Part shown: one piece after another, positions 39,527-55,532 of the stretch
How positions within the stretch are numbered: the stretch's first letter is position 1
Layout of the letters: every line of letters starts with the position of its first letter
From: Nanobdellota archaeon
GTDB lineage: Archaea > Nanobdellota > Nanobdellia > Tiddalikarchaeales > Tiddalikarchaeaceae
Assembly (NCBI GenBank): GCA_016931175.1
Contig: JAFGFH010000014.1
Coordinates: 4,553-68,552, forward strand
Reading direction: 5' to 3'
Length of the DNA: 64,000 nucleotides
Position numbers and translations under genes: made by a program
The notes under the pieces: generated by a model
Databases searched by the model: none
Told to the model about the DNA's origin: nothing
What the model saw: only the letters and a program-made list of their open reading frames with translations

Positions 39527-40210
39527 TTACTTTTTTTTTATAGTTGTTATTTTCTTTCCTGCTCTGATAACTCTCCTCTGCTGGAAATGAGTTTTTTTCT
39601 TAACTGGTATTAATTTGTTTTTGAAATACTTTTCAGGCAATATTCTTATTATGAAATAAGTTATGAACAAGCTGGCTGTTTTGTCAAGGAAGTGTGCAAG
39701 CATTTCAGGCCCAACTAGTCCTGTGAGAACCCCGTTCATTGAATTGTCTGGTTTTCCTATTAGTATTATTATAATCCAATCTAATATGTTGGAGGCGGAA
39801 CTTGTTAAGAGTATGTTCAGTTTCGTATAAATAATTGTTGACAAGAAAGCGATTAACGAGCCTGTTCCGAGTATTTCAATAAGGTTTGATTTCTTGCTTA
39901 TTAAACTCTTGTACTTGTGAAGGTACCCTATTAGTAAACTGTTTATGCCTCCTATTAAGAAGTAAGGGATTATTGAAAAATTATTCACTCCTCTTATTGT
40001 GAATGTCAAAAGACTTGTTAAGAAGCCAGTCCAAGGCCCGCTTATTATTGCTGCAACCAAGCTGCCTATAATATCAAACCACAAGTTTACTCTTAAGTAG
40101 TTGTTCAGAAAAGACAGTAATAAATTAACTGCTGTTCCTAAGATTATAACAATTAAACCGTAACTTGTTAATTCCGTCCTGAAATCGTCTATGAAATCCT
40201 TTATTTTCAT
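39527..40210 (-). CDS. Membrane protein (about 6 TM)
   Basis: 227 aa of hydrophobic helices with a basic C-terminal tail. Confidence 0.45.
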   Translation of the reverse strand: MKIKDFIDDFRTELTSYGLIVIILGTAVNLLLSFLNNYLRVNLWFDIIGSLVAAIISGPWTGFLTSLLTFTIRGVNNFSIIPYFLIGGINSLLIGYLHKYKSLISKKSNLIEILGTGSLIAFLSTIIYTKLNILLTSSASNILDWIIIILIGKPDNSMNGVLTGLVGPEMLAHFLDKTASLFITYFIIRILPEKYFKNKLIPVKKKTHFQQRRVIRAGKKITTIKKK

Positions 40211-47623: not shown

Positions 47624-48322
47624 CTAGTTCCAGAAACGCATTTCAACGTTTTTCTGACGCGCAGCCCAGCTTTTGAGTTTTTTTTCAAAATTAGGAGGGA
47701 AGAGTTTATCGTTCAAGCTTTTATCCATTACGTTATCGTTAGGCTGGAATCTCTGCAGTACTAGTTTTGAAGGACTCACTACTTCGTTGATTTTAATAAT
47801 ATCTTCCATTGAGTGCAGTGAGGGTGTAACAGTCATTCTGAACTCGTGAGCTATACCGCTGTTCTTCACCATTTTAAAGCTTTTATAGAATTGGTTGTAC
47901 ATTCTCTTGCATTTGGTAACATTTGCATAAGCTTCTTCATTAAATAAGCTTTTAACATCCATTGCTATAAAATCAAAGGTTTTATTCTCCATTAAACGCG
48001 TTAATCTTGTGGGAAATGTCCCGTTTGTTTCTATTCCTAAGTTAAGAGAATGATCTTTGCACCAATCTCTTATTTTAAGAATAGCGTCTTCATGAATCAT
48101 AGGTTCTCCTCCGCTGAGCATTACACTGTCAATAATTTGCAGGTTTTTTGTAATCTCGCTGAAAACGTGGCCTAAATCCTTCTTGTTTTTAAATCCTAAT
48201 TGTTTGCTGTTGTAGCAGAAACTGCATTTAAGGTTGCATCCTTGAAAGAATATTACTGATGCTAAGTGCCCAGGAAAATCTATGCTTGAAACGTCCTGCA
48301 CTCCTGCCAAGTAAATCTGCAT
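47624..48322 (-). CDS. Radical SAM activating enzyme (NrdG/PflA-like; likely activase for class III RNR)
   Basis: CNLKCSFCYN (CxxxCxxC) near the N-terminus. 232 aa. nrdD is 4.4 kb away. Confidence 0.6.
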   Translation of the reverse strand: MQIYLAGVQDVSSIDFPGHLASVIFFQGCNLKCSFCYNSKQLGFKNKKDLGHVFSEITKNLQIIDSVMLSGGEPMIHEDAILKIRDWCKDHSLNLGIETNGTFPTRLTRLMENKTFDFIAMDVKSLFNEEAYANVTKCKRMYNQFYKSFKMVKNSGIAHEFRMTVTPSLHSMEDIIKINEVVSPSKLVLQRFQPNDNVMDKSLNDKLFPPNFEKKLKSWAARQKNVEMRFWN

Positions 48323-48374: not shown

Positions 48375-48908
48375 ATGAATAACAAGTCCCAAGAATTATC
48401 TCTTAATTTAATAGTTATAGGTTCTCTTGCTTTGCTTGTTTTGTTAATCGTTGGCGGCATTCTTATCTTTGGAGGGGGAGATTTATTGTCTGGTTTTACC
48501 AGCATTGGCGCTAGCGAGCAGGAAGTGACCCAAATCTCTTTTATAAACCATTGCAGGAGTTTATGCAATACACTTAATCTTAGGATGGACTGGGAACAGT
48601 TGGAGGACTCGCCAGAGCTTTTTTGGAAAGAGGTTAAGGATTACTGTTGCGAGCACTCAGATTTGGACAAGAGCGGAGGTTTGGACTATTACGGTGAGAA
48701 AGGCCCGGAGATATGTGCTTTAGCATTTGACTGCATGTTTGACACTCGATTGGCTTCAGAGTTCTGCGACGGCATTTACTTTAATAAATTAAATGGTTAC
48801 TATTATAGTTATTTATTCAGAACCATTACTACAACTGATGCTGGTGAGGAGTGGAGGTGCAATTATAATCCTCCTGGTTATAGTCCTGCAGGCAACTCTC
48901 CTATTTGA
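48375..48908 (+). CDS. Cys-containing secreted or membrane-anchored protein with N-terminal hydrophobic segment (possible class III/pilin-like signal)
   Basis: MNNKSQELSLNLIVIGSLALLVLLIVGGILIFGGG N-terminus. Confidence 0.4.
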   Translation: MNNKSQELSLNLIVIGSLALLVLLIVGGILIFGGGDLLSGFTSIGASEQEVTQISFINHCRSLCNTLNLRMDWEQLEDSPELFWKEVKDYCCEHSDLDKSGGLDYYGEKGPEICALAFDCMFDTRLASEFCDGIYFNKLNGYYYSYLFRTITTTDAGEEWRCNYNPPGYSPAGNSPI

Positions 48909-48953: not shown

Positions 48954-49532
48954 ATGTTCGTAGTGTTTGAGGGTATTGATGGAAGCGGCAAGTCAACTTT
49001 GTCAAAGATGCTTGCGTCTTATTTAAAGAAGAGTTCTGAGAAGGTTTTATTGTCAAAGTATCCCAGCAAGGGACCGGTTGGTAGTTTGATTAAAAAAAAG
49101 TTTTTGTATCAGGATTCAACTAGTGAAGTTGATTCATTCCTTTTCCTTGCTGACATGTTCGAGCAGGACAATAATGTTATAAAACCGTTGCTAAAGAAGA
49201 AGTTTCACATAGTAAGCGACAGGTATTATCCTTCATTCATCTGTTATCAGAGGATTCAGGGCTTTGACACTAAGCTCTTGTCAGATTTTTACAACCGTTT
49301 GTCAAAACCGGATATTGTTTTCTTTTTGAAGTGCGATGCTTTAACTTGTTATGAAAGGAATAGGAAAAAGAAGCGTTCAAAGTATGAGACTCTTTCTTTT
49401 CTTAGAAGAGTGGAGAAAGAGTATGAAAAGTTAGGCAACTATATTAAGGACAAGATAATAGTATTGGATTCCAGTAAACCGTTAAAGGAGGTTTTCAAAA
49501 AAGTTTTAAGTGAGGCAGGTAAGTTATTATGA
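48954..49532 (+). CDS. tmk: Thymidylate kinase
   Basis: P-loop FEGIDGSGKST. LID and DRY-like regions. 192 aa. Confidence 0.85.
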   Translation: MFVVFEGIDGSGKSTLSKMLASYLKKSSEKVLLSKYPSKGPVGSLIKKKFLYQDSTSEVDSFLFLADMFEQDNNVIKPLLKKKFHIVSDRYYPSFICYQRIQGFDTKLLSDFYNRLSKPDIVFFLKCDALTCYERNRKKKRSKYETLSFLRRVEKEYEKLGNYIKDKIIVLDSSKPLKEVFKKVLSEAGKLL

Positions 49533-50566
49533 ACAAGATTTACTTGTTCTATTTAATGTGCATTGGTATCAGTCTTACTTTCTTATCAACGTATTTCAGC
49601 ATATTCTTTCCTGATTATTCAAACAGTATTTTATATATAGTTACTATAATGTTTGTTTCAAGTATTTTGTTTTTAATGTTCCTTGAAGGCAAGGTTAAAA
49701 TATTTGCAAGCAAATTAATGGTTTTGTCCTCTTTCTTCTTGCTGTTATATTTCAGTTCTATAATAGTTAAAAACTTGTTTTTTCTTACTATTTTTGGGGA
49801 AGAGGTAATATCAGTTTTTTCTGCTTTCTTTTTCCTGTGCTCGGTTTCTTTAATGATGATTGCTTCTCTCAGTTTGAGGAATGAAGCATTTTTTAACAAT
49901 AATGGTTTAATAGCATTAATCTTCTCTCCTGTTATTATTTACTCTTTATGGGTTTTGTTTAATAATGCCTTGTTTAGTACATCAGAGATATTCTCTCAGG
50001 TTCCTTTAAGGCTTTTTATAATATTTTTCACTAGTATTTACTCATTTATTATTTTTTACAACCTCTTCTTTTCAGCAAGAAAAGTTTTAGCTTTGAAGGA
50101 CAAGTATTTCATAATAGCAGCAGGTTTTGCTGTCTTATTCTTATCTTCAGGTTTTAGGATTGCAAACTTCTTTTTTGAATTGTCTTCTATTTTTTCAGTT
50201 ATTGGAAGCTTCACTATTTGTTTCGGTTTAATGATTGAGTCAAGCTTAAACCTTCACCAGTACATGCTTAACGTAATGGTTGACTCTTTGTCTGAAAAGA
50301 AAAAGAAGGATTTCCTTAAATTTCTTAAGAATAGTTGCAGCAAGAGGAAGGATTTAATAATTAATATAAGTAATAAAGTAGTTATTGTTGACAATCCTTC
50401 TTTGTCTAACATTGATGAGAAACAGTCTTATGATAAGGTTATTATCTCTTCTTACAAGTGGTTCAGGAAGCACGTTAAAGGCAGCAGCGAATTGTTGAAT
50501 AATTTGAAAGTGTTTTACAACAAGCAGGCTTTCATGAGCAAGAAGCTTAACTTAATGCTTATTTAA
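49529..50566 (+). CDS. Polytopic membrane protein
   Basis: 345 aa. About 8 hydrophobic helices followed by a basic soluble tail. Confidence 0.5.
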   Translation: MNKIYLFYLMCIGISLTFLSTYFSIFFPDYSNSILYIVTIMFVSSILFLMFLEGKVKIFASKLMVLSSFFLLLYFSSIIVKNLFFLTIFGEEVISVFSAFFFLCSVSLMMIASLSLRNEAFFNNNGLIALIFSPVIIYSLWVLFNNALFSTSEIFSQVPLRLFIIFFTSIYSFIIFYNLFFSARKVLALKDKYFIIAAGFAVLFLSSGFRIANFFFELSSIFSVIGSFTICFGLMIESSLNLHQYMLNVMVDSLSEKKKKDFLKFLKNSCSKRKDLIINISNKVVIVDNPSLSNIDEKQSYDKVIISSYKWFRKHVKGSSELLNNLKVFYNKQAFMSKKLNLMLI

Positions 50567-52218
50567 CTGCTGTCCTGCTCGTAAGTTTTTTTATTCTTAA
50601 TGCAGAATTCTGCTTTTCCAAGCTCGCTTCCCAGATACATTAAATGGGAAGGATTTATTGAAGTTCCAGCCTCTGCTATATTATTGTATAAATCTTTTGC
50701 TGTTTTTCCTTTGAAGCTTTCAATCCCTGAGTGGTCTATTGGGTGTAAGAGTTTCACTATTATCTCTTCTTTTTCTACTTGTATTGTATAATCTCCTCTG
50801 GCATCTTTGAACTCGCTGCTTGTTTTGTAATACTTTTTCAGCATGTCTTCAACTTGTTTGTAATAGTGAGCGTATATTTGAGCGCTTCCTGAAACAATTG
50901 TTAGTATTCCAGGCTCTACTTTTATCCCTTCTGCTATCTCTTTTTGTATTGCAGCGCAGCCGTAAGCGTTGTCAGGCCAGCCTTGTGTCATGTCGTGGCT
51001 TCTGAAGAATACGAAGAGGTTTAGTTTCTCATCCTGAACCATTGCTTGTAATAATACCAGGCACGGGCTGCTTTTATGCTTCCTCATTAGTTCGTCCTGC
51101 ACGTGCCAAGTGATTGCAACGCAAGCTTTAGAGTAAATATCTCTTTTCAACACTTCTATTATGTCGCTGATTTGGTCTACTTCAGCGTAGCCTTTCACGT
51201 AATATTTAACGTTAGCGTCTATCCAAGGGCCTTTGCCGAACTCGTAATCTTTATACTCTGTCGTGTTTACTAATTCTTTTATCGGCTCGCTTGGTGTAAT
51301 ATAAGCGCGTAATTTGTTGCCGTAAGTGTAAGCCTTTCCTTCCGGAAGCAAAGGGCTTAGTATTTCTTTCTTGTAAGCCTCTATCTTTTCAATTGTTAAA
51401 GGCACTAAGAAGGGATTAATGCTTAAGTCAGTGTTTTGAGGGTCGTGTATTACTACAGTCATATTGTTTATCTCTTTCACCCACCTGTCAGTGTTAGCGT
51501 TCATTAAGTTTTTTCTGCCGTAAGTGTTTATTGCGTGTATCATTTTTATCCAAGCGTCTGGTATGTTGGAGCCGTGAACTATTATTGGTCCGCCTTCGTA
51601 AGGTTTGGTTTCTTCCTGTTTTGTGTAATCGTAATTTGATGGGTTGGAATAAGCTTCTTCTTTCTCTTTCTTCATTATTTCATTAGCTTTTGCAATCTTG
51701 TCCTGCAGTGAAGCATTTTTCATCTCAGTATTCAAGTCGATTAATTTCACATTATCTATAATTTTTTTTATCTCACTCGTTGGTATGTTCTTGTCAAAGT
51801 TTACTGCAGTCTCGAATCCCGGTATCTTCCTGTCCTCGTTTATTCCTTTTGTGAAGAAAGCTCTTAAAGCGTTCGCGCTGGTTAGTTCACTCTTAGTCTC
51901 GCACCCGTCCTTGCTCGCGTACTCTTCCCCTAATATTATTATATATCTTATGTAGGGGTTGCCGAGGAGGTTCCTGACCATGCCTTCTATTCCCGCTGGT
52001 GTGTAGAAATTAGTGGCTATTGCGAGATTATCCTTGTCCAACTGGGGGAGTACTGCGTCTCTCATCGTCCATAAGAATGTGACTGCGTAATTTGCAGGAG
52101 TAACTCTTAACTCTTTTGAGTGAGGATATGCTATCCTGTCTCTTACAGCGACTGGCCAGCCTTTCTCACCGTTGCTGCCAATCTGTGATTTAATAGAATC
52201 TAATATCTTCTCCTTCAT
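50563..52218 (-). CDS. Thymidylate synthase (ThyA)-family protein; the N-terminal ~330 aa region aligns only weakly to ThyA or not at all
   Basis: C-terminal region aligns to ThyA core motifs: ITWHVQDEL (as AWNVGEL), SPCLVLLQ (catalytic Cys, as PCHAFFQF), RSHDMTQGWPDNAYGCAAIQ (as RSCDVFLGLPFNIASYALL), GSAQIYAHYY (as GDTHLYSNH). The C-terminal ~220 aa carries these core motifs; residues ~200-330 show weak similarity to the ThyA N-terminal core, and the first ~200 aa have no recognisable motif. Confidence 0.65.
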   Translation of the reverse strand: MKEKILDSIKSQIGSNGEKGWPVAVRDRIAYPHSKELRVTPANYAVTFLWTMRDAVLPQLDKDNLAIATNFYTPAGIEGMVRNLLGNPYIRYIIILGEEYASKDGCETKSELTSANALRAFFTKGINEDRKIPGFETAVNFDKNIPTSEIKKIIDNVKLIDLNTEMKNASLQDKIAKANEIMKKEKEEAYSNPSNYDYTKQEETKPYEGGPIIVHGSNIPDAWIKMIHAINTYGRKNLMNANTDRWVKEINNMTVVIHDPQNTDLSINPFLVPLTIEKIEAYKKEILSPLLPEGKAYTYGNKLRAYITPSEPIKELVNTTEYKDYEFGKGPWIDANVKYYVKGYAEVDQISDIIEVLKRDIYSKACVAITWHVQDELMRKHKSSPCLVLLQAMVQDEKLNLFVFFRSHDMTQGWPDNAYGCAAIQKEIAEGIKVEPGILTIVSGSAQIYAHYYKQVEDMLKKYYKTSSEFKDARGDYTIQVEKEEIIVKLLHPIDHSGIESFKGKTAKDLYNNIAEAGTSINPSHLMYLGSELGKAEFCIKNKKTYEQDSS

Positions 52219-52454: not shown

Positions 52455-52718
52455 TTATTTCACGTGCAGTTTTAGTTCTTTGACTAACTGAGCTTTTGTC
52501 GGCGCTTCGCCGAAGAATAATGTTTCATCGTTTAATGCTATGCTTGGTGTTTCCATGACTTGGTACATTAGTCCTTCAAACAAGTCTGACTTAATATCCA
52601 CTACTCTGAAGTTCATGCCTATTTCTTTAGCAACCTCTTCGCACATTGCCTTAACCTTAGGACAGTTAGGGCAAGTTGGCATTGTGAATACAGTAATTAA
52701 ATCATTTGTCTTTTTCAT
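52455..52718 (-). CDS. Glutaredoxin/NrdH-like thioredoxin-fold redoxin
   Basis: CPNCP active site in an 87 aa protein. 4-nt overlap (translational coupling) with nrdD. Confidence 0.6.
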   Translation of the reverse strand: MKKTNDLITVFTMPTCPNCPKVKAMCEEVAKEIGMNFRVVDIKSDLFEGLMYQVMETPSIALNDETLFFGEAPTKAQLVKELKLHVK

Positions 52719-54769
52719 AGTTCATACCTGTACCTGTCTTTCATCTCAGCCTTTTTACCAGGGTTCCACGCCTTTACTGGGGTTAAGTATCCAGTAACTC
52801 TTGAATACCATTCTATTCTCTTGCTCCCGCAGTTCAAACATTGTTTAATCATGCCGTTCGTGCTTCTCCCGCAGTCCAAGCACTGGCTCATATCTTTAGT
52901 TAGGCTGAAATAAGAGCATAAAGTCTTGGTTGCTACTTTTTTAACAAAATCATTTATGGCTGCAGGGTCAGGGTCCTTGTCTCCCATGAACATGTGTGTT
53001 ATTGCGCCGCCCATTAGTAATGGGTGGAAGCTGCTTTCAATCTTTATCCTATCCCATAACGGAATCTTCGCACCTACGAATACGTGGCTGCTGTTAGTGT
53101 AATAAACGTTTTTGGTTCCTCTTTCTCCTTTCGCCAGGTTATTTTTATACTCCTGGTCTAGTTTAGCGAATCTGTTGCTTGCTGACTCTGCAGGAGTCTG
53201 AACCAGGCTCCACCTGCTGCCTGTTGATTTCTCCATTCTAAAAGTTTTGTCTTTCATGTGATTCAAGACTTTTAACCCAAACCTCCATGAATCCTTGCTT
53301 TCATGTAATTCCTTGCCTGTCATGAAGTGAACTAATTCGTTTAGTCCAACAAAGCCGAAACTGTTAGTGCTGGTGTTTATGTCAAAGTAAGGCTCTCCGT
53401 CAAACTCTTGGGTTAAGAAAGGAGCGCCTCCGTTAAGCAAGTACTTCCTGAGTATGTTTCTTTTAGCTTCAAAGACTTGTTTTGCAGTATCAAATGTTTC
53501 ATCTATTAATTCATACATCATGCCCTCGTCGCCTTTGCTTTCATAAGCGCATCTTGGCAGGTTTGTTGTTACTGTCTGCAGACTGCCAAACCTTAGCTTG
53601 CCTTCTTCTATTTGTTTCATCTGTTTGCTGTCAGGTATTAGGAAGTACCTGCAGCACTGGCTTTGAACTGCGTCCGGCATGTAAGGAGCTGCTAGGTTTA
53701 AAAAGTAAGGCACGCCGTATTTGCTTGCAAGCTTTGAAATCTCTAACAATTCCTTGTCGTATTTCTTGGTTCTTACAACGTTTCTTCTGAGTTTGAATTC
53801 GGGTTTTGGGAAGTTGAAGCTTTTGCCGTGGTAATCTCCTTCCATGTAAGTGTCAATGAATGCCTTTAGTATTAGTTTTGACTCGTCAAGATAGTTTTCG
53901 TATGTAACTCCCTCTTTAACAACCCCTCCTGGGAGTAGCGCTGTCTGGTTTTTTAAATAGTTTGGAGGGTCGAACTCTAAACTAACGCTTGTGAAAGCTG
54001 TTTGTCCTCCTCTGCTGAAATTAGTCATTGACAACTCGTAAATGAAGTATTGAATAACTTGTTTTATGTCCTCGTATTTCATTCCAACAACGTAAGGGGC
54101 GAGTACTACGTTTAAGAAGTCGTAGCCTTGTCCTCCTGAAAAACTAGTCTGGCTTGTTTGTAAAACCTTGGCTAGCTGCATAACTGCGCTGTTTAAGTGC
54201 TTTGCAGGTCCTGCTACAGCTGTTGAAACTCCTTTACCGTCAGTCTTAATGCCGTGTTTTAAGAATAGTCTTGCTGGGACTTCGAAGCAGAAAGGCCGTG
54301 TTACGAAATAATCAAGGTCATGAATGTGAATTTGCCCGCTCATATGGGCTTTACTGGCTTCTCTTGGAAGAACTCTTAGCAAGGCGTATTCTTTTGCAAC
54401 CCTGTCTCCCATTGATTTGTGGACGAATCCTGGATTGTAGTAAGTGTTGGCGTTTTCATCGTCCATGTTAAATATTAACTGTGTGACGTCGTATACTGGA
54501 AGACCAACCCTAGTGTATTTGTCGTGGGCTTCTGTAAGTCCTAACTGGAGCAGTTTAACATTAGCCATTTCCCTTATAAGAGAACCTGAGACATATTCAA
54601 CGTTTAATTTTTCCAATTCTTTTCTAACATCAGCTGCTACTTTTCTTGCAAGATTCTTTGGCAAATCAGCTTCTTTCTCAAGGCTTTCAACGATTTTTTC
54701 ATTATCCTGCTCTTCTAATCTCCCGCTGCTAGTCATTACAAGAATCTTTTTCATTATTTTATTAGACAT
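52715..54769 (-). CDS. nrdD: Anaerobic ribonucleoside-triphosphate reductase (class III, NrdD)
   Basis: 684 aa. C-terminal zinc ribbon CLDCG...CLNCGS followed by glycyl-radical motif RVTGY. N-terminal ATP-cone-like region. Confidence 0.85.
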   Translation of the reverse strand: MSNKIMKKILVMTSSGRLEEQDNEKIVESLEKEADLPKNLARKVAADVRKELEKLNVEYVSGSLIREMANVKLLQLGLTEAHDKYTRVGLPVYDVTQLIFNMDDENANTYYNPGFVHKSMGDRVAKEYALLRVLPREASKAHMSGQIHIHDLDYFVTRPFCFEVPARLFLKHGIKTDGKGVSTAVAGPAKHLNSAVMQLAKVLQTSQTSFSGGQGYDFLNVVLAPYVVGMKYEDIKQVIQYFIYELSMTNFSRGGQTAFTSVSLEFDPPNYLKNQTALLPGGVVKEGVTYENYLDESKLILKAFIDTYMEGDYHGKSFNFPKPEFKLRRNVVRTKKYDKELLEISKLASKYGVPYFLNLAAPYMPDAVQSQCCRYFLIPDSKQMKQIEEGKLRFGSLQTVTTNLPRCAYESKGDEGMMYELIDETFDTAKQVFEAKRNILRKYLLNGGAPFLTQEFDGEPYFDINTSTNSFGFVGLNELVHFMTGKELHESKDSWRFGLKVLNHMKDKTFRMEKSTGSRWSLVQTPAESASNRFAKLDQEYKNNLAKGERGTKNVYYTNSSHVFVGAKIPLWDRIKIESSFHPLLMGGAITHMFMGDKDPDPAAINDFVKKVATKTLCSYFSLTKDMSQCLDCGRSTNGMIKQCLNCGSKRIEWYSRVTGYLTPVKAWNPGKKAEMKDRYRYEL

Positions 54770-54830: not shown

Positions 54831-55532
54831 CTATATATCTTTTTTCGTTATTGCAAAGAATTCTCTCAAAAAAGGGGAAAATCCCTTTTTTTGGGCTTTA
54901 ATCTTGGAAAAAATAACTGTTTCCTTTGTCTTTCTCCAAACACTTAAGAAATAATTTATGTTAAATCTTATGAAACGCCTTCTTGGAGTGTTAGGCAAAC
55001 GCTCCCAGCTTCCTCCCCTAGGCAGTCTTGTATAATACATTGGGTCGTATACTATGAATTCATTATTGTCCGGGTTATACTCTGTTATTACTACCCATCC
55101 GATGCCTAAATTCCTCTGATGGTATAATTCGTTGAGATTAATTAATAATGCAACAGGATAGTCTTTTAACTGTTTCACTAACTCATTCTCAATATCTTCG
55201 TTAATAACTGGTTTAATCTTTAAAGCTTCCAGTTTTTTCTTGGTATATTCTTCAATACTGCTTGAAGGGTCAGCAGGGAAAGAGTCACTCTCCTTCACAA
55301 TTATTACATTAAAATCCTTCAAAGCTAACCCTGCAAGGTCGTAAATAGTTACAGAACTCCAAGGGCTGTCTTTCAAAGCCAGCTTGTTCGCCTTGTCAGC
55401 TGTTGCACTGTAGTCATTAATCTTCTTCTCGTAAACTCCAACACCATTAGTGTAATCCTTCAGAATCTTGAGGCAAGTCACTCCTGTCTGTTCAACTCTT
55501 TTGCACGTAATGTGAGGAACGAAACGTTTCAT
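54831..55532 (-). CDS. Hypothetical protein (possible papain/C39-like fold, tentative)
   Basis: 233 aa. Candidate nucleophile in TGVTCLKIL. No clear His partner. Confidence 0.4.
   Translation of the reverse strand: MKRFVPHITCKRVEQTGVTCLKILKDYTNGVGVYEKKINDYSATADKANKLALKDSPWSSVTIYDLAGLALKDFNVIIVKESDSFPADPSSSIEEYTKKKLEALKIKPVINEDIENELVKQLKDYPVALLINLNELYHQRNLGIGWVVITEYNPDNNEFIVYDPMYYTRLPRGGSWERLPNTPRRRFIRFNINYFLSVWRKTKETVIFSKIKAQKKGFSPFLREFFAITKKDI

What the first reader, a model, noticed from the sequence alone, without database searches (positions are those of the whole stretch)
50563..52218. Thymidylate-synthase-fold protein with a roughly 330 aa N-terminal region aligning weakly or not at all to ThyA, inside a dNTP-metabolism island
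The C-terminal ~220 aa aligns motif-by-motif with the ThyA C-terminal catalytic core (catalytic Cys in SPCLVLLQ; RSHDMTQGWPDNAYGCAAIQ; GSAQIYAHYY). The preceding ~130 aa show weak similarity to the ThyA N-terminal region, and the first ~200 aa have no recognisable motif. The gene sits between tmk (48954-49532) and the grx-nrdD operon (52455-54769), with an NrdG-like activase nearby. The ThyA fold also gives rise to dCMP/dUMP hydroxymethylases and other pyrimidine-modifying enzymes, so the extra N-terminal region could confer a different substrate, cofactor handling (folate vs other C1 donor) or regulation. Several ThyA-motif positions are substituted (His in place of the usual Asn in ITWHVQDEL; Gln in place of the usual His in GSAQIYAHYY), arguing against a plain ThyA.
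Basis: partly seen in the sequence, partly recalled or inferred. Interest (0 to 1): 0.6.

Follow-up and report, generated by a model that had tools for sequence, protein, structure and literature searches.

The report
Three-domain thymidylate synthase of ultra-small microbes
The gene encodes a thymidylate synthase whose stripped-down catalytic core is flanked by two uncharacterised domains; this layout is conserved across many tiny archaea and bacteria, has not been studied, and might change how these cells handle folate.

Summary
The ORF at 50563-52218 (- strand, 551 aa) is real, intact and not a frameshift fusion. The protein has three domains:
- Residues ~17-205: a clear homologue of MtrA, the corrinoid-binding subunit of the methanogen methyltransferase. 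It has lost the cobalt-ligating His84 and Glu54.
- Residues ~206-466: an archaeal/methanogen-type minimal ThyA core. Cys386, Arg406, Ser407, Asp409, Asn417, Tyr299 and Tyr449 are kept. The classical folate loop (W80/W83) and the C-terminal lid are absent.

The same architecture recurs in hundreds of protein clusters. It is 60-80% identical in DPANN archaea and CPR bacteria, and 30-40% identical in Chloroflexi, KSB1 and others.

Neighbouring genes are tmk, nrdD/nrdG, and dCMP or dCTP deaminase, which is sometimes fused to the gene. In CPR bacteria, glyA and folD follow directly downstream. No DHFR gene was seen in the window or in the 30 related loci searched for it. The protein is therefore very probably the cell's dUMP-to-dTMP enzyme and uses methylene-tetrahydrofolate.

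The role of the MtrA-like/DUF4346 module is unknown. My best guess is that it binds the folate cofactor. A more novel possibility is that it makes the enzyme independent of DHFR. I found no literature on this architecture.

The parts
50563..52218 (-). Whole gene: 551-aa three-domain thymidylate-synthase-family protein. It is identical to the NCBI MAG protein JW791_02820, annotated 'hypothetical protein', Nanoarchaeota archaeon.
   Evidence: ORF list; 100% identical database hit P0001; Pfam domains PF04208 + PF00303 + PF14251.
51604..52218 (-). N-terminal domain, residues 1-205. It has the MtrA (Rossmann-type) fold but has lost MtrA's cobalt ligand His84 and its partner Glu54. The positions that bind the nucleotide tail of cobalamin in MtrA are kept (Thr73, Gly76, Asn83). 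Trp50, Tyr72 and Arg82 are invariant or nearly invariant (>=90%) across the family.
50821..51603 (-). Linker plus ThyA catalytic core, residues 206-466, of the archaeal/methanogen type. It carries a subfamily-specific insertion at about residues 305-345.
51061..51063 (-). Codon of Cys386, the predicted catalytic nucleophile (equivalent to E. coli ThyA Cys146).
   Evidence: Translation gives SSPCLV; the residue is nearly invariant (>=90%) in the family-wide alignment A3 and Cys in all nine sequences aligned with E. coli ThyA.
50566..50820 (-). C-terminal DUF4346 domain (PF14251), residues 467-551, with a beta3-alpha2 fold. Asp472, His525, Gly530, Glu532 and Gln548 are invariant across all DUF4346 contexts examined.
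48954..49532 (+). Thymidylate kinase (tmk), which consumes dTMP. A tmk gene is a recurrent neighbour, found in 7 of 26 loci.
   Evidence: PF02223 E=2e-36; neighbour clustering.
52455..54769 (-). nrdD (anaerobic ribonucleotide reductase) followed by a thioredoxin/glutaredoxin-like gene. Both lie directly upstream of the finding on the same strand. nrdD is a recurrent neighbour, found in 8 of 26 loci.
   Evidence: PF13597 E=2.5e-157 and PF13192; neighbour clustering.
47624..48322 (-). Radical-SAM protein resembling the NrdG activase. It is a recurrent neighbour, found in 6 of 26 loci.
   Evidence: PF04055 and PF13353; neighbour clustering.

Best explanation
The gene encodes the cell's thymidylate synthase (dUMP to dTMP), but of a distinct and widespread three-domain family.

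What is shown:
- The catalytic chemistry sits in an archaeal-type minimal ThyA core.
- That core keeps the Cys386 nucleophile, the dUMP phosphate and uracil ligands (Arg406, Ser407, Asn417, Tyr449), the Tyr299 base, and the pterin-binding Asp409.
- The core lacks the two elements that classical ThyA uses to hold folate: the Trp80/Trp83 loop and the C-terminal lid.
- The core is inserted between the two halves of a pre-existing two-part module, an MtrA-fold domain plus DUF4346. This module also exists without ThyA.
- In this family the MtrA-like half has lost the cobalt-ligating histidine.

What is inferred:
- The flanking module supplies the missing cofactor site. DUF4346 occupies the place of the classical C-terminal lid, and it accompanies several pterin-handling enzymes elsewhere.
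- The conserved pocket of the N-domain (Tyr72, Thr73, Gly76, Arg82, Asn83), which derives from the cobalamin-tail pocket of MtrA, would hold the anionic tail of 5,10-methylene-tetrahydrofolate.
- SHMT (the GlyA enzyme) would supply that cofactor.
- dUMP would come from dCMP/dCTP deaminase, and the dTMP product would go to Tmk.
For: Domain architecture.

Catalytic residues kept, folate loop and lid absent.

All three domains are under strong constraint in the close subfamily. Columns at least 90% identical: 68 of 205 in the N-domain and 145 of 261 in the core.

The architecture dominates wherever this N-domain occurs. Of 72 long relatives drawn from 1.84 billion representative proteins, 66-71 carry MtrA + ThyA + DUF4346.

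The module exists without ThyA: P0173, P0229, P0373 and P0374 match NCBIfam NF002128 contiguously. DUF4346 also follows DHPS-like pterin-binding proteins (the TIGR00284 hit; P0389).

Genomic context:
- In 26 loci, the recurrent neighbours are NrdD (8 loci), Tmk (7), NrdG-like (6), dCMP deaminase (6) and dCTP deaminase Dcd (5).
- Operons with the order deaminase, three-domain gene, glyA, folD occur in CPR bacteria (L008/L010; L032/L033).
- Fusions to dCMP deaminase exist.
Against: - No biochemical data exist for any member, and 10 literature searches found nothing on the architecture.
- The role assigned to the module is inference only. DUF4346 has no informative structural relative, and I could not inspect model coordinates to see whether the module faces the active site.
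- Single-domain methanogen-type ThyA proteins have the same minimal core without any module, so the module is not strictly required by the core.
- In this subfamily, two of the four classical phosphate-binding arginines are Lys364 and Ala365.
- One Patescibacteria genome carries a second ThyA-like paralogue beside the three-domain gene. In that genome the two may have divided functions.
Confidence: 0.5

Rival explanations
1. A thymidylate synthase that does not need DHFR. The MtrA-like/DUF4346 module would either re-reduce the dihydrofolate produced by the ThyA core, or deliver reducing equivalents so that dihydrofolate is never released. That would make it a functional analogue of protozoan DHFR-TS or of ThyX, and the organism would need no FolA.
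For: - The module accompanies two enzyme types tied to dihydropterins: ThyA here (whose product is dihydrofolate) and DHPS-like proteins (TIGR00284/P0389).
- DUF4346 is also fused to 4Fe-4S ferredoxin domains (P0391, P0393), which hints at electron transfer.
- CPR operons encode a deaminase, the three-domain ThyA, SHMT and FolD, which is the thymidylate cycle minus DHFR.
- tblastn with E. coli FolA found no DHFR in the window or in 30 related loci. The Pfam-annotated neighbourhoods show none either.
- Published surveys report many genomes with thyA but no folA, and folA in only 54.8% of CPR genomes against glyA in 81.3% (PMC11974145).
Against: - The module has no NAD(P)H or flavin-binding motif and no conserved cysteines.
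- The N-domain's relatives bind corrinoid, not nicotinamide or flavin.
- Only about 8-10 kb around each gene was inspected, so folA could lie elsewhere in these genomes.
- The Foldseek alignments to DHFR-TS have TM about 0.28 and only reflect domain order.
Confidence: 0.2
2. The flanking module is a nucleotide-sensing regulatory or oligomerisation module. For example, it could bind dTTP, dCTP or another nucleotide in the former cobalamin-tail pocket, and have no direct role in catalysis.
For: - The conserved pocket residues (Thr73, Gly76, Asn83) correspond to those that bind the phosphate-ribose-base tail of cobalamin in MtrA.
- The gene is embedded in dNTP-supply genes, and in relatives it is fused to dCMP deaminase, an enzyme that is known from other organisms to be allosterically regulated.
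Against: - ThyA enzymes are not known to be allosterically regulated (general knowledge).
- DUF4346 keeps the same invariant polar residues (Asp, His, Glu, Gln) when attached to unrelated partners. That fits a common small-molecule ligand better than regulation specific to a thymidylate synthase.
Confidence: 0.13
3. Corrinoid-dependent thymidylate synthesis. The MtrA-like domain would still carry a cobamide in a His-off state. A methyl group taken from a methyl-pterin would pass through CH3-Co(III) to C5 of Cys-activated dUMP, as SAM-dependent C5-methyltransferases do with SAM.
For: - The N-domain is a true MtrA homologue and keeps the tail-binding positions.
- Sister MtrA-DUF4346 proteins keep the His and Glu cobalt-ligation residues (P0373, P0374).
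- DUF4346 is also found on a Peripla_BP_2 domain (P0392). To my recollection, not tested here, that family includes B12-binding proteins.
Against: - His84 and Glu54 are lost family-wide, and the His loop is deleted or variable.
- The pterin-binding Asp409 is retained in the ThyA core.
- The operon partners are glyA and folD, which supply methylene-THF, not an MTHFR or methyl-THF:corrinoid methyltransferase.
- CPR and DPANN organisms generally lack cobamide synthesis (general knowledge).
Confidence: 0.07
4. Not a thymidylate synthase but another C5 pyrimidine-modifying enzyme of the ThyA superfamily, for example a dUMP/dCMP hydroxymethylase or a flavin-dependent hydroxylase like 9iqc.
- Several classical positions are substituted: H147L, H207Q, R126K, R127A.
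- A second ThyA-like paralogue is present in L027.
- The score falls below the TIGR03283 and TIGR03284 equivalog cut-offs.
Against: - Asn417, the uracil-specifying residue, is nearly invariant (>=90%) family-wide.
- The gene is chromosomal and conserved in streamlined cellular genomes, next to tmk and dUMP-producing deaminases.
- No other ThyA or ThyX was seen in the window.
- No viral homologues were found.
Confidence: 0.07

Closest known systems
Methanogen/archaeal-type thymidylate synthase (NCBIfam TIGR03283; to my recollection the M. jannaschii MJ0757 type)
   Same: The ThyA core (residues 213-455) aligns end-to-end with the 201-position model at E=4.5e-42. It is the same minimal core: it has the Cys-Arg-Ser-Asp-Asn catalytic set, and lacks the classical folate loop and C-terminal lid.
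   Different: Members of that family are single-domain proteins of about 200-230 aa. This protein has a 205-aa MtrA-like domain in front and an 85-aa DUF4346 behind, and it scores below the family cut-off (143.9 vs 174.55 bits). Its hosts use folate enzymes (glyA and folD in the same operon in CPR bacteria) rather than methanopterin.
Classical ThyA (E. coli, L. casei; EC 2.1.1.45)
   Different: The W80/W83 folate-binding segment and the C-terminal lid are absent. His147 is Leu, Arg126 and Arg127 are Lys and Ala, and His207 is Gln in this subfamily. Two extra domains are present.
MtrA, the corrinoid-binding subunit of methyl-H4MPT:CoM methyltransferase (PDB 5laa, 5l8x; PMC4915002)
   Different: The cobalt ligand His84 and its partner Glu54 are missing. 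There is no transmembrane anchor, and the protein is not part of an Mtr operon.
MtrA-DUF4346 proteins (NCBIfam NF002128-like; annotated 'DUF4346 domain-containing protein') and the DHPS-like protein family TIGR00284
   Same: They share the DUF4346 domain with identical invariant residues (Asp, His, Gly, Glu, Gln). In the first group they also share the MtrA-like domain and a similar proline-rich linker motif (PF..P..FP). Together these define the two-part module into which ThyA is inserted.
   Different: Those proteins have no ThyA core. The examples read (P0373, P0374) keep the His/Glu cobalt-ligation residues, and P0373 has a Cys-rich N-terminus. None has a known function.
Bifunctional DHFR-TS of protozoa and plants
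   Same: The layout is analogous: an N-terminal alpha/beta domain followed by a thymidylate synthase, in one polypeptide of about 520-610 aa. These were the top Foldseek hits.
PDB 9iqc, a ThyA-fold protein deposited as 'monooxygenase dependent on riboflavin, with dCMP and FAD'
   Different: Only 15% identity. It was not found by sequence search, I located no publication, and it is a single-domain protein of 234 aa.

Membership tests
Thymidylate synthase ThyA (PF00303 / EC 2.1.1.45) | ThyA fold and a Pfam match above the gathering threshold | tested here: met
Thymidylate synthase ThyA (PF00303 / EC 2.1.1.45) | Catalytic Cys nucleophile in the P-C motif, plus Arg166, Ser167, Asp169, Asn177, Tyr94 and Tyr209 (E. 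coli numbering) | tested here: met
   Cys386, Arg406, Ser407, Asp409, Asn417, Tyr299 and Tyr449 align to these positions and are invariant or nearly invariant family-wide.
Thymidylate synthase ThyA (PF00303 / EC 2.1.1.45) | Arg126'/Arg127' phosphate ligands contributed by the partner subunit, and Arg21 | tested here: inconclusive
   This subfamily has Lys364 and Ala365 at these positions, while the distant subfamily keeps Arg-Arg. The Arg21 alignment is ambiguous; Arg245 or Lys248 are candidates.
Thymidylate synthase ThyA (PF00303 / EC 2.1.1.45) | Classical folate-binding elements: the Trp80/Trp83 segment, Leu172/Phe176, and the C-terminal lid | tested here: not met
   The segment between the Glu58 and Tyr94 equivalents is much shorter than the 36 residues of E. 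coli (about 14 by my motif-based mapping; the Glu58 equivalent is ambiguous). Leu172 is Gln and Phe176 is Asp. The C-terminal lid is replaced by DUF4346.
Thymidylate synthase ThyA (PF00303 / EC 2.1.1.45) | Catalytic activity: dUMP + CH2-H4folate gives dTMP + H2folate | not testable with these tools
   Only contextual support is available: tmk, dCMP/dCTP deaminase, glyA and folD as neighbours.
Methanogen-type ThyA equivalog (TIGR03283) | Score above NCBIfam's curated cut-off; single-domain protein of about 200 aa | tested here: not met
   143.9 bits, below 174.55. The protein has 551 aa and two additional domains.
MtrA corrinoid-binding protein (PF04208 / TIGR01111) | MtrA Rossmann-type fold | tested here: met
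MtrA corrinoid-binding protein (PF04208 / TIGR01111) | Cobalt-ligating His84 hydrogen-bonded to Glu54 (PMC4915002) | tested here: not met
   His84 falls in a variable, low-confidence insertion (residues 101-112) that has no conserved His. Glu54 aligns to a gap or to Thr73. TIGR01111 scores 38.6 bits, below 249.15.
MtrA corrinoid-binding protein (PF04208 / TIGR01111) | Actual binding of a cobamide | not testable with these tools
   The tail-pocket positions (Thr53, Gly57, Asn64) are conserved as Thr73, Gly76 and Asn83. His-off binding therefore cannot be excluded.
DUF4346 (PF14251, PterinBD-DUF4346) | Pfam match above the gathering threshold, with the conserved D..G / HA.YLG.EL / Y.QD motifs | tested here: met
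   64.2 bits against a cut-off of 29.6. Asp472, His525, Gly530, Glu532 and Gln548 are invariant across all contexts.
dCMP hydroxymethylase / CMP hydroxymethylase (T4 gp42, MilA) | Asp in place of the uracil-specifying Asn177, which selects cytosine (the role of this residue is from general knowledge of the family) | tested here: not met
   Asn417 is retained and nearly invariant.
Bifunctional DHFR-TS | A DHFR (PF00186) domain fused to the thymidylate synthase | tested here: not met

The most novel reading that the evidence does not exclude
The MtrA-like/DUF4346 module turns a minimal ThyA core into a self-sufficient thymidylate synthase that needs no DHFR, either by recycling dihydrofolate on the enzyme or by using an external reductant. 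That would explain how many ThyA-positive, FolA-negative genomes (CPR, DPANN, Chloroflexi and others) run the thymidylate cycle. It would also give a first function to DUF4346 and to His-less MtrA homologues.
Probability: 0.2. Interest if true: 0.85.

Novelty: new variant of a known kind. Interest (0 to 1): 0.6.

Why it matters
Thymidylate synthesis is essential, is a classic drug target, and has been thought to come in only two forms, ThyA and ThyX.

This three-domain form appears to be the thymidylate synthase of a large share of the ultra-small, host-dependent archaea and bacteria (DPANN and CPR) and of some Chloroflexi. It is conserved at 60-80% identity across the archaea/bacteria divide. 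Databases label it only 'thymidylate synthase' or 'hypothetical protein'.

Its two accessory domains descend from a corrinoid-protein module and also occur on other pterin enzymes. Working out what they do would assign a function to DUF4346. It could also bear on the long-standing question of how organisms with thyA but no folA regenerate tetrahydrofolate.

Tried and rejected
Searches that found nothing useful:
- Literature: 'DUF4346' (0 papers); 'thymidylate synthase' + 'MtrA' (only unrelated human MTRR/MTR papers); '9IQC'; 'MJ0107' and 'MJ0757'; Pfam accession numbers. CPR/DPANN papers mention thyA only generically.
- The supplement of PMC11974145 did not contain the genome accession I wanted for a folA co-occurrence check.
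- The viral contig scan found no relatives.

Technical failures:
- The search for related loci with the family-wide alignments A3 and A4 failed because no stretch was conserved enough. The one genome scan therefore used the single protein and recovered only the close subfamily.

Ideas rejected:
- A frameshift or gene-fusion artefact. The ORF is continuous and the architecture is conserved in hundreds of independent assemblies.
- An N-domain that is a divergent DHFR. The Foldseek hits to DHFR-TS have TM about 0.28 and reflect domain order only.
- A dCMP-specific hydroxymethylase. The uracil-specifying Asn is retained.
Full report
**1. Observation**

The window carries one uninterrupted ORF at 50563-52218 on the minus strand, 551 aa long. 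It is 100% identical to an NCBI MAG protein annotated 'hypothetical protein JW791_02820 [Nanoarchaeota archaeon]'.

The named neighbours are confirmed by Pfam:
- thymidylate kinase, 48954-49532;
- a radical-SAM NrdG-like protein, 47624-48322;
- a thioredoxin/glutaredoxin-like protein, 52455-52718;
- NrdD, 52715-54769.

The rest of the window is archaeal, with PolD, Cdc6/Orc1, RPA, aRF1, aIF5A and FEN1. No thyX, folA, glyA or folD was detected in it, either by Pfam on about 40 ORFs or by tblastn with reference proteins.

**2. Anatomy**

Pfam finds three domains:

| Domain | Pfam family | Residues | E-value |
|---|---|---|---|
| MtrA | PF04208 | 67-185 | 5e-11 |
| Thymidylat_synt | PF00303 | 343-469 | 1e-18 |
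| PterinBD-DUF4346 | PF14251 | 471-549 | 2e-17 |

- NCBIfam places the ThyA core at residues 213-455, covering the methanogen-type model TIGR03283 end to end (E=4.5e-42). The score is below its equivalog cut-off, 143.9 vs 174.55 bits.
- A profile-profile comparison against a bona fide MtrA gives 99.2% probability over residues 17-207. Essentially the whole 'motif-less' N-terminus is therefore an MtrA-fold domain.

**3. The ThyA core**

I aligned the core to E. coli ThyA, whose sequence I supplied from memory.
- Kept: Tyr94 (Tyr299), Cys146 (Cys386), Arg166 (Arg406), Ser167 (Ser407), Asp169 (Asp409), Asn177 (Asn417) and Tyr209 (Tyr449). All are invariant or nearly invariant across the family.
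- Changed: Arg126 and Arg127 are Lys364 and Ala365, His147 is Leu, and His207 is Gln447.
- The changes at Arg126/Arg127 and His207 are specific to the DPANN/CPR subfamily. The distant subfamily keeps Arg-Arg and His.
- The classical folate-holding elements are missing family-wide. These are the Trp80/Trp83 segment, Leu172/Phe176 and the C-terminal lid.

**4. The N-domain**

The MtrA structure paper (PMC4915002) defines the cobalamin contacts. His84 ligates cobalt and is hydrogen-bonded to Glu54. Asn55 and Asn82 touch the corrin ring. Thr53, Gly57 and Asn64 hold the nucleotide tail.

In this protein and its whole family:
- Gly57 and Asn64 are conserved as Gly76 and Asn83. Thr53 corresponds to Thr73 in the phmmer alignment but to a gap in hhalign, so this one is less certain.
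- Glu54 is lost.
- His84 falls in a variable, low-confidence insertion that has no conserved histidine.

The domain is still strongly constrained, with 68 of 205 columns at least 90% identical in the close subfamily. Trp50 is invariant across the family, and Tyr72 and Arg82 nearly so (at least 90%).

**5. How widespread it is**

- The full-length search returned 265 clusters. The best 120 all carry the same three Pfam domains at 61-80% identity. They come from DPANN archaea (Woese-, Aenigmat-, Iain- and Nanoarchaeia, and Tiddalikarchaeum) and from CPR bacteria (Zambryski-, Portnoy- and Saccharibacteria).
- A full HMMER scan of 1.84 billion representative proteins with the N-domain alone found 129 relatives. 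Of the 72 long ones, 71 have MtrA, 70 have DUF4346 and 66 have ThyA.
- A profile of these distant members (30-40% identical to the window protein) found 449 more clusters. These come from Chloroflexi, KSB1, Kerfeldbacteria and other Patescibacteria, Nanobdellota and Aenigmatarchaeota.

**6. The module exists without ThyA**

- P0173 (248 aa) and P0229 (269 aa) are MtrA-like + DUF4346 only. They match NCBIfam NF002128 contiguously.
- P0373 and P0374 ('DUF4346 domain-containing protein', from Verrucomicrobiae and KSB1) keep the His and Glu cobalt-ligation residues. P0373 also has a Cys-rich N-terminus.
- DUF4346 also follows a DHPS-like pterin-binding domain (TIGR00284/P0389) and 4Fe-4S ferredoxin domains (P0391, P0393), and precedes a Peripla_BP_2 domain in P0392.
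- Across all these contexts, Asp472, His525, Gly530, Glu532 and Gln548 are invariant.

The simplest history is that a minimal ThyA core was inserted into the linker of an MtrA-DUF4346 protein, and the corrinoid ligands were lost afterwards.

**7. Genomic context**

I clustered the ORFs of 25 related loci plus the window. The recurrent neighbours are:
- NrdD, 8 loci;
- Tmk, 7 loci;
- NrdG-like radical-SAM protein, 6 loci;
- dCMP deaminase, 6 loci;
- dCTP deaminase Dcd, 5 loci (Pfam-confirmed).

In CPR bacteria the gene is translationally coupled to a deaminase upstream and is followed by glyA (SHMT) and folD. This is seen in L008 and L010 and in L032 and L033. In Zambryskibacteria a dCMP deaminase overlaps the gene's start. 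Many homologues are fused to dCMP deaminase, and some also to a nucleoside 2-deoxyribosyltransferase domain.

No DHFR was found in the window or in the 30 related loci searched by tblastn, and none appears in any Pfam-annotated neighbourhood.

One exception to the simple picture is a Patescibacteria contig. There, a 317-aa ThyA-like paralogue and a dCMP deaminase lie two genes from a distant-subfamily member.

**8. Interpretation**

- Shown: the protein has a ThyA-type active site that is competent for attack on dUMP, and it retains a pterin ligand.
- Strongly supported by context: it sits where a cell's thymidylate synthase should sit, fed by dUMP-producing deaminases and by SHMT/FolD, and feeding Tmk. 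I put the probability that it makes dTMP at about 0.8.
- Inferred only: the role of the flanking module.

My preferred reading is that the module rebuilds the cofactor site that the minimal core lacks. DUF4346 would act as the lid and pterin-tail binder, and the former cobalamin-tail pocket would bind the anionic tail of the folate. This is the most economical common denominator for DUF4346's partners (ThyA, a DHPS-like pterin enzyme, and the corrinoid protein MtrA), all of which work with pterin cofactors. The report's confidence of 0.5 covers the thymidylate-synthase assignment and this module role taken together.

Rival readings:

| Rival | Confidence |
|---|---|
| DHFR-independent cycle, by on-enzyme dihydrofolate recycling or an alternative reductant | 0.2 |
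| Nucleotide-sensing regulation or oligomerisation | 0.13 |
| His-off corrinoid-mediated methyl transfer | 0.07 |
| A different C5 modification of the pyrimidine | 0.07 |

The DHFR-independent reading is attractive for four reasons:
- the CPR operons encode every enzyme of the thymidylate cycle except DHFR;
- DUF4346 occurs on ferredoxins;
- folA is reported in only about 55% of CPR genomes, against glyA in about 81% (PMC11974145);
- the same paper reports other lineages with thyA but no folA.

Against it, I found no reductase-like cofactor motif, and I could not survey whole genomes.

**9. Novelty**

The sequences are in public databases and are sometimes auto-annotated 'thymidylate synthase (methanogen type)'. 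Ten literature searches found no description of this architecture, of DUF4346, or of His-less MtrA homologues.

I class it as a new variant of a known kind: a thymidylate synthase with an uncharacterised, conserved two-part accessory module. It also shows clear cross-domain sharing. The protein is 63-66% identical between this archaeal window and copies on genuinely bacterial CPR contigs that carry NusG, L11, SecE, GyrB or GatB.

Noticed in passing
window 50563-52218 compared with L031:7001-8680 and L032:7001-8668: The protein in this archaeal window is 63-66% identical to copies on clearly bacterial CPR contigs, which carry NusG, ribosomal protein L11, SecE, GyrB or GatB next to the gene. This implies fairly recent horizontal transfer of the three-domain gene between DPANN archaea and CPR bacteria.
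   Followed up: partly
Homologues P0024, P0052 (919-923 aa); P0033, P0039, P0074, P0117 (~730-760 aa); L034:7001-9202: Many homologues are further fused at the C-terminus to a dCMP deaminase. In the longest ones a nucleoside 2-deoxyribosyltransferase domain is added as well, giving four- or five-domain dUMP/dTMP 'factories'.
   Followed up: partly
L027:11844-12797 (-) and L027:12798-13286 (-): In a Patescibacteria contig, a second and different ThyA-like paralogue lies in an operon with dCMP deaminase, two genes from a distant-subfamily three-domain gene. It is 317 aa, keeps the PC and RSRD motifs and the Asn, and has a long C-terminal extension. The two ThyA-like genes may have divided functions.
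   Followed up: partly
P0365 (420 aa; its longest contig is 685 kb): This protein has the MtrA-like and DUF4346 domains flanking a degenerate ThyA core that has lost the catalytic Pro-Cys and Arg-Ser-x-Asp motifs. It looks like an inactivated or repurposed member of the family.
   Followed up: no
P0391, P0393 (ferredoxin + DUF4346); P0392 (DUF4346 + Peripla_BP_2); P0373 (Cys-rich N-terminus + His-retaining MtrA + DUF4346): DUF4346 is combined with 4Fe-4S ferredoxin domains, with a periplasmic-binding-protein fold of the family that (to my recollection) includes B12 and siderophore binders, and with apparently corrinoid-competent MtrA domains. None of these proteins has a known function.
   Followed up: no
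window 39527-40210 (-): A 227-aa membrane protein gives a sub-threshold match to the substrate-specific (S) component of ECF vitamin transporters (24 bits, cut-off 30.7). It lies next to a TctA-family transporter. If real, it could be a vitamin (folate?) importer.
   Followed up: no
window 54831-55532 (-); also L002 and L003: A 233-aa protein with no Pfam match lies immediately next to nrdD here and in two related DPANN loci (cluster c9).
   Followed up: no
L005, L009, L015, L019, L024, L025 (for example L009:7004-7585 +): A 165-193-aa protein with no Pfam match recurs near the three-domain gene in six Woesearchaeota loci, directly upstream of it in L009 and L025. In L005, L009 and L015 it lies beside a radical-SAM gene that, from its sequence, looks like a wyosine-synthesis (TYW1/Taw1-type) enzyme; that gene was not itself scanned.
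   Followed up: no
window 48375-48908 (+): A 177-aa ORF between the NrdG-like gene and tmk has an N-terminal hydrophobic helix and several Cys residues, and no family match. It may be a small secreted or pilin-like protein.
   Followed up: no
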